From a virus: DNA of 49,817 nucleotides. Where the stretch lies: the IMG/VR virus record IMGVR_UViG_3300005340_000010. One strand, written 5' to 3'. Below the pieces are notes generated by a model that saw only the letters and a program-made list of their open reading frames with translations, did not search any database and had not been told where the DNA came from. Both the position numbers and the translations under genes were made by a program. Positions 26,643 to 39,912 of this stretch are shown one piece after another; within the stretch, counting starts at the first letter, position 1; each line of letters starts with the position of its first letter.

Positions 26643-26893
26643 TTCGCCCCACCATGCGACAGCGCCCGAGCGCTAGTGTCGGAGTCGTTCCATCCGCCAA
26701 TCCTGTCGTCCTGCACCCCGAAACAGGTTCGCTCGTTCTTCCACGCTCGCAACTCGCGGATGACGCGGATAGCAGTATCGACGGCACCTTCGTTTTGCGA
26801 CGGCTCGCCGGGGACTTCTTCCATGATGAAGGCGGCCAGCCGATCAATCTGCGACTTCAGAGATTCTACTTGCGAAACAAGTAGTGGCAACAT
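26639..26893 (-). CDS. Hypothetical protein, 84 aa
   Basis: ATG 26893 forms a TGATG overlap with the lipoprotein gene's stop. The N-terminus is coiled-coil-like. Confidence 0.55.
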   Translation of the reverse strand: MLPLLVSQVESLKSQIDRLAAFIMEEVPGEPSQNEGAVDTAIRVIRELRAWKNERTCFGVQDDRIGGWNDSDTSARALSHGGAK

Positions 26894-27261
26894 CAGTGCA
26901 CCGCCTGCCCGAGCAATCCGAGTTGCCCGAGCATCCATCCGAAGAATGAGCACTTCTCCGCGACGGTCGGCTTGATCTTCAGCGCTTCGTGTTTCGCGTC
27001 GGCCAGTGCGAGCGACGAAAAGATGCCGGTCACCTGCACCTTGTCGAGATCTTCGAGCGGCGGGAGTTGGTCGGTCAGCACGGCGTCGGCGCAGTCGATG
27101 AGTTTCTGATTCTTCGACGCGACGCCGACTTCCTTCACGCTGACGATGTCAGTCTTGACCTTGCTGACGACTTGCGCGTGAATGGCGTTGATCTGATTGG
27201 TGACGGTTCCGCAGGCGGTCAGGCAGAGGGTGAGGATTGCGAGAGTGAGTGTGCGTTTCAT
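26893..27261 (-). CDS. Lipoprotein, 122 aa
   Basis: AAGGAGcacccacATG start. MKRTLTLAILTLCLTAC has lipobox LTAC. Confidence 0.7.
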   Translation of the reverse strand: MKRTLTLAILTLCLTACGTVTNQINAIHAQVVSKVKTDIVSVKEVGVASKNQKLIDCADAVLTDQLPPLEDLDKVQVTGIFSSLALADAKHEALKIKPTVAEKCSFFGWMLGQLGLLGQAVH

Positions 27262-27278: not shown

Positions 27279-27470
27279 TTAAAAGACTAATTCGCCGAGT
27301 TCTTCGGCGATCGTTACACGAGGGCCTTCAGTGAAGTTCGCCTCCGCACATTTCGATGCGTACGCAATCGCCTTTTCGGTGGCCTCGTTGATAGTCTTAG
27401 CTTTGCCGATGATGTCCCTGTGCCAGTTGGGATTGTCGTCCCCTTCGATTCGAATCTTGAATACCTTCAT
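27279..27470 (-). CDS. Hypothetical protein, 63 aa
   Basis: AAGGAGaaagcgATG start, 30 nt downstream of the tRNA-like element. Confidence 0.6.
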   Translation of the reverse strand: MKVFKIRIEGDDNPNWHRDIIGKAKTINEATEKAIAYASKCAEANFTEGPRVTIAEELGELVF

Positions 27471-27510
27471 CGCTTTCTCCTTTTCGTGTTCAACTTCTCA
27501 GTGCTCAGAT

Positions 27511-27583
27511 GCGAGCCGGAAGGAATCGAACCCTCGACTGACCCCGCGCGTTGGTCAATGCGCTCCAGCCGCATCGCAGCCCG
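27511..27583 (-). tRNA. tRNA-like cloverleaf (73 nt, nominal anticodon GCG) with a non-canonical core and anticodon loop, embedded in a 94-nt extended hairpin (27501..27594)
   Basis: Hand-folded. Acceptor CGGGCTG/CGGCTCG, D arm ATGC-GGCTGGAGC-GCAT, anticodon arm GACCA-ACGCGCG-GGGTC, variable AGTC, T arm GAGGG-TTCGATT-CCTTC, discriminator C. Deviant bases: C8, G14, C33, C37. No CCA is encoded. Confidence 0.45.
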
Positions 27584-27594
27584 CATCCGAGCAC

Positions 27595-27756
27595 TCAAAA
27601 GTCGATACTTCTGCCTACCCTCCATCCCATAATCGCACACAGCCCGCACGCCACACTCGCAGGAACGATCGGCAGCGGATGGCCGGATAGCTCCGACGAG
27701 GCGCAGGTCAGGAGCGCGAGCAGGAATACGATGAAGCCGAGAGTGTGGCGGGTCAT
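27595..27756 (-). CDS. Small lipoprotein-like membrane protein, 53 aa
   Basis: ATGA overlap with the upstream stop. MTRHTLGFIVFLLALLTC has a lipobox-like LLTC. A second hydrophobic stretch follows. Below the ORF-track size cut-off. Confidence 0.5.
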   Translation of the reverse strand: MTRHTLGFIVFLLALLTCASSELSGHPLPIVPASVACGLCAIMGWRVGRSIDF

Positions 27757-27938
27757 GGCTTGTGCTCTTCCGAACCGTACCGAATGTTCAGCACAGCCTC
27801 AACCCAGGTTGCGTGACCGGTAGCATCGTGGTGTCTCGCGGCTACGGCCTGAGCGTTAGGAGCCAGCCAATGCGCTTCAATACCGAAGCACTGAAAGCAG
27901 CCCGCTCGCACGTCCCGTGACGTGTAGGTGCGTCGCAT
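27753..27938 (-). CDS. Small Cys/His protein, 61 aa
   Basis: TGATG overlap with the RHH gene. CFQCFG...HHDATGH motif. Confidence 0.5.
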   Translation of the reverse strand: MRRTYTSRDVRAGCFQCFGIEAHWLAPNAQAVAARHHDATGHATWVEAVLNIRYGSEEHKP

Positions 27939-35860: not shown

Positions 35861-36046
35861 ATGAGCAGAAAATCTTTGGAACAGACAATCGCAACAACCT
35901 TCCTATCCGGCGCCGGACTGAAGGTCGCACAACGAGTCGCCGAGGAGATGCTGACGACGGCGATGGCAGAGAAGGATATGGATGCCGTCGAACAGCTCAG
36001 CAAGGTTCGGGGCGATCTGCGGAAGTTGGCGGGAGGTGGCAAGTGA
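35861..36046 (+). CDS. Hypothetical protein, 61 aa
   Basis: AAAGGAGaaacgcATG after a 176-bp gap. Confidence 0.55.
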   Translation: MSRKSLEQTIATTFLSGAGLKVAQRVAEEMLTTAMAEKDMDAVEQLSKVRGDLRKLAGGGK

Positions 36047-39227: not shown

Positions 39228-39403
39228 AGCCCTTCAGCGCATGGCTAGCGATGGACGGCTCTGAGCCTAACGGTGACGCTGTGTTTTCGAACGAGACTAC
39301 AGCGGAAAAATGGTCGGAGGACGGACACGAGCCCCAGCGCGTCCTCATCGTCGCCGACACGCCGGAGAATCGGAAGCTGCTTGGAATGGAGGAAGGATCG
39401 TGA
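39224..39403 (+). CDS. Hypothetical protein, 59 aa
   Basis: ATGA overlap upstream and a GTGA overlap downstream. Confidence 0.5.
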   Translation: MKPFSAWLAMDGSEPNGDAVFSNETTAEKWSEDGHEPQRVLIVADTPENRKLLGMEEGS

Positions 39404-39912
39404 GGTACTTTTTCGACACCGAGTTTATCGAGCGCGGTCCCGAGCATCCAATCCGGTTGCTGTCAATCGGCATTGTTTCGGAAGATGACCGCGAACTGTA
39501 TTGCGAGATCGTGAATGCGGACAATCTGATCGAGCAGGATTTCCGGCGCTTCGCCGATCCATGGCTGAAGATAAACGTCCAGCCGCATCTTCGCAGCGTC
39601 GGTATGCGGCTCGATGAAATCCGATCGCACATCCTCGCTTTCATCGGTGACGACAAGCCCGAGTTTTGGGCCTACTTCGCCGACTACGATTGGGTCGTGC
39701 TCTGCCAAATCTTCGGGCGCATGATCGACCTTCCTAAGGGCTGGCCGATGCACTGCCTTGACGTGAAGCAGGAGATGAAAACGCGCGGCGTGAAGCGCGA
39801 GCAACTGCCGGAGCAGGGCAACGCGGAACACTCGGCGCTGAACGATGCCCGCTGGACTCGCGACGCGTGGCAATTCGTAACGAAGCAAGTGGATGCCGGA
39901 GATTACCTGTGA
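39400..39912 (+). CDS. DEDDh 3'-5' exonuclease (Rv2179c-like), 170 aa
   Basis: YFFDTEFIE (ExoI), FADYDW (ExoII-like) and EHSALNDARW (ExoIII, H-x4-D). Confidence 0.7.
   Translation: MRYFFDTEFIERGPEHPIRLLSIGIVSEDDRELYCEIVNADNLIEQDFRRFADPWLKINVQPHLRSVGMRLDEIRSHILAFIGDDKPEFWAYFADYDWVVLCQIFGRMIDLPKGWPMHCLDVKQEMKTRGVKREQLPEQGNAEHSALNDARWTRDAWQFVTKQVDAGDYL

What the first reader, a model, noticed from the sequence alone, without database searches (positions are those of the whole stretch)
27501..27594. Operon-embedded tRNA-like cloverleaf clamped by an 18-bp extended acceptor helix, with non-canonical invariant positions
Minus strand 27583->27511 folds by hand into a 73-nt cloverleaf:
- Acceptor CGGGCTG/CGGCTCG, with two G-U pairs.
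- D arm ATGC-GGCTGGAGC-GCAT.
- Anticodon arm GACCA-ACGCGCG-GGGTC.
- Variable AGTC.
- T arm GAGGG-TTCGATT-CCTTC, a canonical T-loop.
- Discriminator C, and no encoded CCA.

Positions that are nearly invariant in elongator tRNAs deviate. These are C8, G14, C33 (normally U) and C37 (normally a purine), and an A-G mismatch closes the anticodon stem. The nominal anticodon is GCG (Arg).

The acceptor helix continues for 11 more base pairs (GTGCTCGGATG / CATCTGAGCAC, one G-U). The whole 94-nt element starts on the nucleotide after the TGA of the upstream lipoprotein ORF and ends 30 nt before the next ATG (AAGGAG RBS). The complete genome has no integrase, so an attP relic is unlikely.

Three hypotheses:
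1. A divergent but functional phage tRNA.
2. A tRNA-like processing signal (RNase P/Z or RNase III entry site) that splits the polycistron.
3. A decoy or substitute for host tRNA-targeting defence nucleases, a role already proposed for some phage tRNAs.
Basis: partly seen in the sequence, partly recalled or inferred. Interest (0 to 1): 0.7.

Follow-up and report, generated by a model that had tools for sequence, protein, structure and literature searches.

The report
Clamped tRNA-shaped RNA in phage operon
A 94-base stretch between two phage genes folds into a tRNA-shaped RNA held shut by a long helix, and compensating mutations in two other soil phages show the fold is selected; it is not a working tRNA, matches no catalogued RNA family, and its job is untested.

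Summary
Window 27501-27594 (minus, the coding strand) folds into a cloverleaf closed by an 18-bp helix, the only such helix in the 49.8-kb window.

It is not a normal tRNA. ARAGORN finds nothing at default settings, and the best Rfam match is 21 bits against a threshold of 47.

It is a real, selected RNA structure. I found two further versions in other soil-phage contigs. One, L059, shares nothing else with this window. Across the three sequences 96.8% of pair cells are standard pairs, and 12 pairs changed on both sides. RNAalifold returns the same fold on its own.

The "wrong" tRNA positions (C8, G14, C33, the A-G mismatch) are conserved. The nominal anticodon is not (GCG versus CAU). The "discriminator" simply co-varies as one more base pair of the helix, so there is no tRNA end.

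The anticodon-like loop is AA + a 6-nt palindrome + G in both variants (CGCGCG, CCAUGG). This is the layout of the HIV-1 dimerisation loop.

My best reading is a tRNA-derived structural module in the mRNA that host RNases process, or that stabilises the transcript. The mechanism is inferred, not shown. A self-dimerising tRNA mimic is the most novel reading still open.

The parts
27501..27594 (-). Whole 94-nt element: a four-way junction RNA made of closing helix P1 and three hairpins
   Evidence: Sequence. R1 covariance model scores 110.9 bits here. RNAalifold gives the same consensus fold.
27577..27594 (-). P1 5' strand. 27594-27584 is the outer clamp; 27583-27577 is the acceptor-like part.
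   Evidence: 18 of 18 positions pair, 3 of them G-U. 9 of the 18 pairs changed on both sides among the homologs.
27501..27518 (-). P1 3' strand. 27518-27512 is the acceptor-like part, 27511 is the 'discriminator' C, and 27510-27501 is the outer clamp.
   Evidence: Column 11:84 (position -1:73) is G-C in the window and L008 and C-G in L059.
27557..27575 (-). P2, the D-like hairpin: a 4-6 bp stem with loop GCUGGAG or GGCUGGAGC. Together with the adjacent C at 27576, it is 100% identical in all three versions.
   Evidence: Alignment A2: columns 18-39 are invariant, while 11 of 18 positions of the P1 5' strand differ. RNAalifold gives a 6-bp stem.
27540..27556 (-). P3, the anticodon-like hairpin: 4-bp stem GACC/GGUC plus the 9-nt loop AACGCGCGG
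   Evidence: 2 of its 4 pairs changed on both sides. The A31-G39 mismatch is conserved.
27545..27550 (-). 6-nt palindrome CGCGCG in the P3 loop, flanked by AA on the 5' side and G on the 3' side
   Evidence: L059 has CCAUGG at the same loop positions. Self-duplex energies are -13.1 and -11.0 kcal/mol, against -13.9 and -10.7 for HIV-1 DIS loops.
27536..27539 (-). Variable-loop-like linker AGUC. C48 could pair with G15.
   Evidence: Invariant in A2. The tertiary pair is inferred from tRNA rules.
27519..27535 (-). P4, the T arm: GAGGG-UUCGAUU-CCUUC with a canonical T-loop
   Evidence: The stem varies while keeping its pairs.
27595..27756 (-). Upstream 53-aa ORF, a small hydrophobic protein. Its stop codon abuts the element. 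It is not an obligate partner of the element.
   Evidence: L082 has the ORF without the element. L059 has the element behind an unrelated ORF.
27471..27500 (-). 30-nt spacer with the RBS AAGGAG (27482-27477). It travels with the element and is followed by the 63-aa ORF at 27279-27470.
   Evidence: The spacer is conserved in L008, where the downstream gene is replaced, and partly conserved in L059.

Best explanation
The element is a tRNA-derived, tRNA-shaped structural RNA module that is transcribed as part of the phage polycistronic mRNA. It does not decode.

Shown:
- Its fold is a four-way junction. P1 is an 18-bp closing helix that takes the place of the acceptor stem and runs on without any break.
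- The D-like hairpin is invariant in sequence.
- The anticodon-like hairpin is short, with a 9-nt loop.
- The T arm is canonical.
- Selection maintains this fold.

Inferred from tRNA rules: G18/G19 and G15 in the D-loop, the T-loop and C48 allow the tRNA elbow to form, which would give an L-shape with a coaxial arm of about 23 bp.

Inferred function: it acts as intercistronic 'punctuation'. Host enzymes that recognise double-stranded RNA or tRNA shape would act on it. These are RNase III on the clamp, then RNase P or 3' trimming enzymes, and tRNA-modifying enzymes on the T and D loops. The outcome would be either a split transcript with a compact, nuclease-resistant tRNA-like RNA released, or protection of the neighbouring cistrons from exonucleases if the element stays uncleaved. 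The spacer and RBS that follow belong to the same portable module.
For: - Sequence and position.
- Covariation: 96.8% of pair cells are standard pairs, 12 pairs changed on both sides, 0 of 500 shuffles reach this, and slid registers give 33-52%.
- RNAalifold finds the same fold independently.
- The cloverleaf lies within about 1 kcal/mol of the MFE in the window and in L008.
- G-U pairs fall on the sense strand, and the sense strand folds better than the antisense strand.
- The element has the orientation of the genes, with no promoter or terminator beside it.
- The element plus its RBS spacer are kept where both flanking genes are replaced.
- It is the only similarity between L059 and the window, and L059 is phage DNA.
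- Columns 18-39 of the alignment (the D-like hairpin plus the bases next to it) are invariant, whereas 11 of 18 positions of the P1 5' strand differ. This suggests sequence-specific recognition.
- Precedent for tRNA-like modules cut by RNase P or modified by tRNA enzymes: PMC4201824. Precedent for plant mitochondrial t-elements: PMC1920247 (listed).
Against: - There is no expression or cleavage data.
- There are only three distinct sequences, two of them about 95% identical.
- Nothing marks the -1/+1 junction. The helix is continuous, position 73 is paired, and there is no CCA or single-stranded leader, so direct RNase P cleavage is doubtful.
- At 18 bp the helix is at the short end for RNase III.
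- The position of the upstream stop codon varies: 0, about 10 and about 21 nt from the helix.
- The palindromic loop and the invariant D hairpin are not explained by a simple punctuation role.
Confidence: 0.4

Rival explanations
1. It is a trans-acting tRNA mimic that forms homodimers. The 9-nt loop (two A, a 6-nt palindrome, one G) would form a kissing complex with a second copy, as the HIV-1 dimerisation initiation site does. That would join two L-shaped modules or two transcripts. The dimer or monomer could act as a decoy or sponge for host tRNA-binding or tRNA-cleaving defence proteins.
For: - The loops are AA-CGCGCG-G (window, L008) and AA-CCAUGG-G (L059). Four of the six positions changed, yet self-complementarity is kept at the same loop positions.
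- An intramolecular pairing cannot explain this, because the loop left over would be only 2 nt.
- A random 9-nt loop has this layout about 0.2% of the time, and 9 of 81 four-base changes keep a palindrome.
- The self-duplex energies equal those of HIV-1 DIS loops.
- For DIS, the review PMC7357161 states that the palindrome and its flanking purines are both required.
- The possible relatives L073 and L019 carry a 10-nt palindrome at the same place.
Against: - This is a post hoc observation on two independent loops.
- CGCGCG is also a simple CG repeat.
- Membership of L073 and L019 is uncertain, because real tRNAs picked by the same kind of pattern reach 28-36 bits.
- There is no biochemical evidence, and no defence target is known.
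- The loops do not resemble any host anticodon loop (C33, no conserved anticodon).
Confidence: 0.22
2. It is a cis-acting regulator of the downstream gene. It could be a 5'-UTR structure that sets translation or mRNA half-life, or an RNA that modifies RNA polymerase in the manner of phage put or nut antitermination sites.
For: - The element always lies 20-30 nt upstream of an RBS and start codon, and the spacer travels with it.
- It sits in a run of small same-strand genes.
- In the window, L008 and L059 the second gene downstream is a predicted lipoprotein.
Against: - The downstream genes are unrelated to one another.
- The RBS lies outside the structure.
- The tRNA-specific T-loop and D-loop features are not needed for such roles.
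- It has no similarity to any Rfam cis-regulatory family.
Confidence: 0.13
3. It is a decaying tRNA gene with no present function.
For: - The 3' half resembles real phage tRNAs.
- ARAGORN calls tRNA-Arg(GCG) at 80% of its threshold.
Against: - The non-canonical positions are conserved rather than scattered.
- 12 compensatory pairs, 9 of them in the helix P1 (several in its 11-bp extension, which no tRNA has), show purifying selection on the fold.
- It persists in two unrelated phage backbones.
Confidence: 0.07
4. It is a DNA-level element: a small mobile or recombinogenic unit whose 18-bp terminal inverted repeats are kept for a transposase, a recombinase or a cruciform, rather than for RNA pairing.
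For: - It is present in unrelated backbones.
- In L008/L013 a 10-nt direct repeat, GTTGAACGCG, flanks it and occurs nowhere else in that 13.8-kb locus.
- Inverted repeats that change in concert would mimic covariation.
Against: - Of 8 DNA-level mismatches in P1, 5 are G-U on the sense strand and 1 is G-U on the antisense strand.
- The internal hairpins also co-vary.
- The T-loop is a strand-specific RNA signature.
- No transposase or integrase was detected.
- There is only one copy per genome.
- The direct repeat is absent from the window and from L059.
Confidence: 0.06
5. It is a divergent but functional decoding tRNA, excised from a helical precursor.
For: - It has a cloverleaf, a canonical T-loop and G18/G19.
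- ARAGORN makes a sub-threshold call.
Against: - The anticodon is GCG in two versions and CAU in the third, on the same body.
- All versions have C33, a pyrimidine or G at 37, and A31-G39.
- There is no conserved discriminator and no CCA.
- Rfam scores are at most 21 bits.
Confidence: 0.03

Closest known systems
Canonical tRNA (Rfam RF00005, clan CL00001)
   Same: - Cloverleaf order: D, anticodon, variable, T.
- 7-nt T-loop UUCGAUU.
- GG in the D-loop.
- A possible G15-C48 pair.
- A 4-nt variable region.
- No spacer between the T stem and the closing helix.
   Different: - It fails ARAGORN at default settings and the Rfam thresholds.
- It has C8, G14, C33 and A31-G39.
- The anticodon is not conserved.
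- The acceptor stem runs on for 11 more pairs.
- Position 73 is paired.
- There is no CCA.
Bacterial Y RNAs with tRNA-like domains (YrlA; D. radiodurans Yrn1), PMC4201824
   Same: - A tRNA-like T arm and D arm closed by a long stem formed by the 5' and 3' ends.
- Invariant D- and T-stem sequences beyond what the fold needs.
- Some members occur in phages.
- In Yrn1, if I read the paper's comparison with YrlA correctly, the closing stem sits at the acceptor position, as here.
   Different: - YrlA is circularly permuted: its closing stem sits at the anticodon position.
- Y RNAs have a bulged Ro60-binding helix and lie next to a Ro60 gene. Here the helix is perfect and no TROVE-domain protein was found among the ORFs tested.
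- There is no Rfam match to any Y RNA family.
tRNA-like processing signals inside longer transcripts (plant mitochondrial t-elements; MALAT1 mascRNA)
   Same: - A tRNA-shaped module embedded in a longer RNA.
- mascRNA is the second-best Rfam match, at 18 bits.
- The proposed punctuation role is the same.
   Different: - Those elements have free or loosely structured flanks, so RNase P and RNase Z can cut. Here both flanks are locked in a helix.
- They are eukaryotic or organellar.
- There is no sequence homology.
HIV-1 dimerisation initiation site (DIS) kissing loop
   Same: - A 9-nt apical loop with two 5' purines, a 6-nt GC-rich palindrome and one 3' purine.
- The predicted self-duplex energy is the same.
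   Different: - The DIS stem is longer and is not part of a tRNA-like fold.
- Dimerisation here is untested.
RNase III processing stalks (rRNA operons, phage T7 intercistronic sites)
   Same: - Flanking sequences pair into a long helix that brackets a structured RNA between cistrons.
   Different: - The helix has 18-19 bp without internal loops. That is shorter than rRNA stalks and unlike the bulged T7 sites.
- No cleavage data exist.

Membership tests
tRNA (decoding) | Detected by tRNA covariance or heuristic models above their thresholds | tested here: not met
   - ARAGORN at default settings finds 0 genes in the window, and calls one only at 80% of its threshold.
- Rfam gives no match at gathering scores.
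- The best clan match is tRNA-Sec, at 21 bits against 47 and 20 bits in L008.
- In L059 only the T arm matches.
tRNA (decoding) | Conserved U8, A14, U33 and purine 37, with a 5-bp anticodon stem | tested here: not met
   C8, G14, C33 and A31-G39 occur in all three versions. Position 37 is C or G.
tRNA (decoding) | Anticodon kept among orthologs, with a free acceptor end that has a discriminator base (and CCA or a site for adding it) | tested here: not met
   The anticodon is GCG versus CAU. Column 11:84 co-varies as a pair (G-C to C-G). No CCA is present. G3-U70 is not conserved.
tRNA (decoding) | Cloverleaf with a canonical T-loop and GG in the D-loop | tested here: met
tmRNA | tRNA-like domain plus a tag reading frame, detected by ARAGORN or Rfam RF00023 | tested here: not met
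   (the -m run).
Y RNA / YrlA | A neighbouring Ro60 (TROVE) gene and a Ro60-binding bulged helix | tested here: not met
   No TROVE hit in 40 window ORFs. P1 has no bulge.
Y RNA / YrlA | Arm order T arm, acceptor-like hairpin, D arm, with the closing stem at the anticodon position | tested here: not met
   The order here is D, anticodon, T, with the closing stem at the acceptor position. The YrlA order is taken from PMC4201824.
tRNA-like processing signal (t-element or mascRNA type) | Cleavage by RNase P and/or RNase Z at the ends of the module in vivo | not testable with these tools
   This needs RNA end mapping or in vitro cleavage.
DIS-type kissing loop | An apical loop with a 6-nt self-complementary sequence flanked by purines | tested here: met
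DIS-type kissing loop | Loop-dependent homodimer formation | not testable with these tools
   This needs native PAGE or SEC with loop mutants.
attP / tRNA 3'-fragment relic | Only the 3' part of a tRNA is present, it is identical to a host tRNA, and it lies next to an integrase | tested here: not met
   - The full cloverleaf is present, with a co-varying 5' half.
- No integrase was detected.
- The D-loop-to-T-loop pattern scan of 185,579 genomes recovered no copy of the element. The 3' half alone was not searched against them.

The most novel reading that the evidence does not exclude
The element founds a class of phage-borne, tRNA-shaped RNAs whose anticodon loop has been replaced by a DIS-like palindromic kissing loop. 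Two L-shaped modules, or two mRNAs, would then pair head-to-head into a symmetric RNA homodimer. Its long clamped arms and invariant D hairpin would present a bivalent tRNA-like surface to host tRNA-binding or tRNA-cleaving (defence) proteins.
Probability: 0.15. Interest if true: 0.8.

Novelty: new variant of a known kind. Interest (0 to 1): 0.55.

Why it matters
tRNA-shaped modules that do not decode are known from tmRNA, Y RNAs, viral 3' ends, mascRNA and plant mitochondrial t-elements. A clamped, operon-embedded version in phages is not catalogued. It has no Rfam match and no match in GenBank phages, in plasmids or in 185,579 reference genomes.

It is the only sequence shared by two otherwise unrelated soil phages whose proteins are almost all unannotatable. 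This suggests a portable RNA function under strong selection.

If host RNases process it, this would show tRNA punctuation of mRNAs in phages. If it dimerises, it would be a small natural RNA homodimer built on the tRNA fold. Either reading can be tested directly with a transcript of about 100-190 nt.

Tried and rejected
- **Ordinary tRNA or tmRNA.** Rejected.
- **ARAGORN's 94-nt 'tRNA-Pro(UGG)' in L008**. It uses the D-like hairpin as the anticodon arm and breaks P1. I rejected it because P1 is the best-supported helix.
- **Obligate link to the upstream 53-aa ORF.** Rejected: L082 has the ORF without the element, and L059 has the element without the ORF.
- **Homologs in relatives of the 366-aa neighbour protein.** None in L002-L007 or L152-L156.
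- **IMG/VR pattern scans.** Only one relative phage turned up.
- **Reference-genome scan.** Only coding-sequence and tmRNA chance hits.
- **Protein-database trick.** I queried with the open frame that runs through the element. It returned only the identical phage.
- **GenBank phages and plasmids by blastn.** Only T-arm hits to real tRNAs, or nothing.
- **Nearby promoter or terminator.** None convincing.
- **The flanking motif GTTGAACRCG as a genome-wide signal.** It occurs at chance level.
- **Alanine identity from G3-U70, and histidine identity from G-1:C73.** Neither is conserved.
- **Function of the neighbouring proteins.** Pfam, PHROGs and NCBIfam gave essentially nothing.

Full report
**1. 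The observation**

The minus strand of window 27594-27501 reads:

GUGCUCGGAUG-CGGGCUG-CG-AUGC-GGCUGGAGC-GCAU-U-GACCA-ACGCGCG-GGGUC-AGUC-GAGGG-UUCGAUU-CCUUC-CGGCUCG-C-AUCUGAGCAC.

- The TGA of the upstream 53-aa ORF (27595-27756) ends at 27595.
- The next ATG is at 27470, preceded by the RBS AAGGAG at 27482-27477.
- The sense strand folds at -50.2 kcal/mol, z = -4.2. The antisense strand folds at -37.7, z = -2.4.
- My own scan shows this is the only 18-bp helix (G-U allowed) with a 30-90 nt spacer on either strand of the 49.8-kb window.
- The cloverleaf with the clamp costs -48.9 kcal/mol against an MFE of -50.2.

**2. It is not an ordinary tRNA**

- ARAGORN finds no tRNA or tmRNA in the window. 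Only at 80% of its threshold does it call tRNA-Arg(GCG) at 27510-27584.
- Rfam 15 has no match at gathering scores.
- With permissive settings on 301 nt, the best matches are tRNA-Sec at 21 bits (threshold 47) and mascRNA at 18 bits.

**3. Relatives**

- The window is an ENA soil-metagenome contig of 49,868 bp. An identical copy exists in another sequencing run.
- It has no relative among GenBank phages.
- Pfam recognises almost none of 40 ORFs. It finds no integrase, no Ro60 and no RNA ligase. The only clear hit is an Rv2179c-like exoribonuclease at 39310-39912.
- Relatives found through the 366-aa neighbour protein lack the element.
- Two other versions turned up.

*Version (a): L008/L013/L083/L084, a mosaic relative of about 50.6 kb*
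- The element differs at 5 positions.
- The gene downstream is replaced by an unrelated one, and the sequence upstream of the 53-aa ORF is unrelated.
- The element and its 30-nt RBS spacer are kept.

*Version (b): L059, a 10.8-kb phage-like contig (PHROG hits)*
- It was found with a D-loop-to-T-loop pattern.
- The element is again exactly 94 nt.
- tblastx finds no protein similarity between L059 and the window.
- The only blastn hit is the 61-nt core of the element.

The 53-aa ORF is not an obligate partner. L082 has the ORF without the element, and L059 has the element behind a different ORF.

**4. The fold is selected**

- On the ungapped three-way alignment A2, the proposed structure has 96.8% of its cells in standard pairs.
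- 12 pairs changed on both sides: 9 of the 18 in P1, 2 of the 4 in the anticodon-like stem, and 1 in the T stem.
- None of 500 column shuffles reaches these values. Sliding the 3' partners by 1-3 columns drops pairing to 33-52%.
- RNAalifold, given no structure, returns the same four-way junction with an 18-bp P1. It draws the D-like hairpin with a 6-bp stem and a 7-nt loop.
- G-U pairs fall mostly on the sense strand.
- A covariance model built from A2 scores above 100 bits only on these loci.
- Caveat: there are only three distinct sequences, and two are about 95% alike.

**5. What is conserved and what is not**

- Columns 18-39, that is C8, G9 and the whole D-like hairpin, are identical in all three. 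By contrast, 11 of 18 positions in the P1 5' strand differ between the window and L059.
- AGUC and the T-loop are also invariant.
- The nominal anticodon is GCG in two versions and CAU in L059.
- G3-U70 becomes G-C or C-G.
- Position -1:73 goes from G-C to C-G like any other pair of the helix.
- There is therefore no conserved tRNA terminus, no identity set and no decoding function.
- In L059, Rfam sees only the T arm.

**6. The loop**

- With the A-G pair left open, the anticodon-like hairpin is a 4-bp stem with a 9-nt loop.
- The loop is AA-CGCGCG-G in the window and L008, and AA-CCAUGG-G in L059.
- Both carry a 6-nt palindrome at the same loop positions, between two 5' A and one 3' G.
- Four of the six bases changed without loss of self-complementarity.
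- Pairing within one loop cannot explain this, because only 2 nt would be left unpaired.
- The layout is that of the HIV-1 dimerisation initiation site, where the palindrome and its flanking purines are both needed for the kissing dimer (PMC7357161).
- Predicted self-duplex energies are -13.1 and -11.0 kcal/mol, against -13.9 and -10.7 for two DIS variants.
- A random loop has this layout about 0.2% of the time, and 9 of 81 four-base changes preserve a palindrome.
- This is a post hoc observation on two independent loops. I treat it as a lead.

**7. Possible wider class**

- L073 and L019 have a 13-14-bp closing helix (14 bp in L073), the same D-loop, a T arm, and a 10-nt palindrome UGCGCGCGCA where the anticodon arm would be.
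- They score 39 and 29 bits with R1.
- Real tRNAs pulled out by a similar pattern reach 28-36 bits, so their membership is uncertain.

**8. Comparison with known systems**

- The nearest architecture is the tRNA-like domain of bacterial Y RNAs.
- YrlA has invariant D and T stems and a closing stem, and M. smegmatis YrlA is cut by RNase P (PMC4201824).
- However, YrlA is permuted, needs a bulged Ro60-binding helix, and lies next to Ro60. None of this holds here.
- Plant mitochondrial t-elements and mascRNA are the functional analogues for a tRNA-like processing signal, but their flanks are free.
- An attP relic is excluded by the co-varying 5' half and by the absence of an integrase.
- Scans of GenBank phages, plasmids and 185,579 reference genomes gave no homolog.

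**9. Mechanism**

- Shown: a selected, sense-strand, tRNA-shaped fold with a clamp. It sits in an intergenic spacer and is portable between phage backbones together with the RBS spacer.
- Inferred: an L-shaped fold formed through the D-loop/T-loop contact.
- Inferred: a role as an RNA-level punctuation or stability module handled by host RNase III and tRNA-processing enzymes. I give this about 0.4.
- The continuous helix, with no marked -1/+1 junction, argues against simple RNase P cleavage.
- Rivals, all with lower weight, are:
  - a dimerising trans-acting tRNA mimic or decoy;
  - a cis regulator of the downstream gene;
  - a DNA-level mobile unit (L008 has a flanking 10-nt direct repeat);
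  - a dead tRNA gene;
  - a true tRNA.

**10. Verdict**

- The functional-tRNA reading is rejected. The processing-signal and decoy readings remain open.
- The element is a new, small, well-supported structured-RNA motif of the tRNA-like kind, with unknown function.

Noticed in passing
L013 9525-9534 and 9647-9656 (the same phage as L008): A 10-nt direct repeat, GTTGAACGCG, flanks the element at a distance of 122 nt and occurs nowhere else in that 13.8-kb locus. The window keeps only the downstream copy (27485-27494), and L059 keeps only a diverged upstream copy. It could be a scar of insertion or recombination.
   Followed up: partly
L008 about 2640-2684 and L059 about 1891-1935 (upstream of the element): About 30-45 nt upstream of the helix (GGGGGxAG...GATGGTTGARCGCGGTYGAAG) are conserved between L008 and L059. 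They are read in different frames by unrelated upstream ORFs, so the conservation is at the nucleotide level. The window lacks most of this stretch.
   Followed up: partly
L073 89-180 (-) and L019 85-176 (-): Another closed tRNA-like RNA. It has a 13-14-bp closing helix (14 bp in L073), the D-loop GGCUGGAGC, a canonical T arm, and a 10-nt palindrome UGCGCGCGCA where the anticodon arm would be. It has no Rfam or ARAGORN match.
   Followed up: partly
L021, L025, L030, L033, L035, L040, L043, L047, L064, L065, L070, L076 (peat and bog metagenome contigs): A recurrent tRNA-like sequence of about 75 nt: GGGGTGGCTGGAGCTGCGCTGGGCTATACATCCACGGCTGCATGAGGTTCGATTCCTCACACCCCAAACC. Its flanks are AT-rich. 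In the representatives tested, neither ARAGORN nor Rfam called it. It seems to have a minimal D arm and a long anticodon stem.
   Followed up: no
L155 5931-7091 and L153 1875-2684: Related phages, found through the 366-aa protein, encode an RtcB RNA ligase and an RNA_ligase-family protein. L153 and L154 also carry an Acb5-family gene. The window has none of these among the ORFs tested.
   Followed up: no
window 27595-27756 (-): A 53-aa hydrophobic ORF, possibly with a signal peptide or two membrane segments, is conserved at 80-85% identity in three different gene contexts. Its C-terminal tail differs in each. Its lipobox-like LLTC is not conserved in L082.
   Followed up: partly
window 26893-27261 (-) and L059 972-1568 (-): In the window, L008 and L059, the second gene downstream of the element is a predicted lipoprotein (MKRTLTLAILTLCLTAC... 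and MKTLTIAVLAAVLLAGC...). The mature parts are unrelated between the window and L059.
   Followed up: partly
whole window: Of 40 ORFs scanned against Pfam, one passes its curated cut-off (Rv2179c-like 3'-5' exoribonuclease at 39310-39912). Only sub-threshold hits appear otherwise (DUF4082, AAA_24, zinc-finger domains). The phage has no relative in GenBank phages. Gene orientation switches near 36,000.
   Followed up: partly
window 27757-27937: A 181-nt stretch without a called gene lies between the 106-aa and the 53-aa ORFs on the minus strand. It is overlapped only by an alternative 110-aa ORF in another frame. It could hold a promoter for the 53-aa ORF and the element.
   Followed up: no
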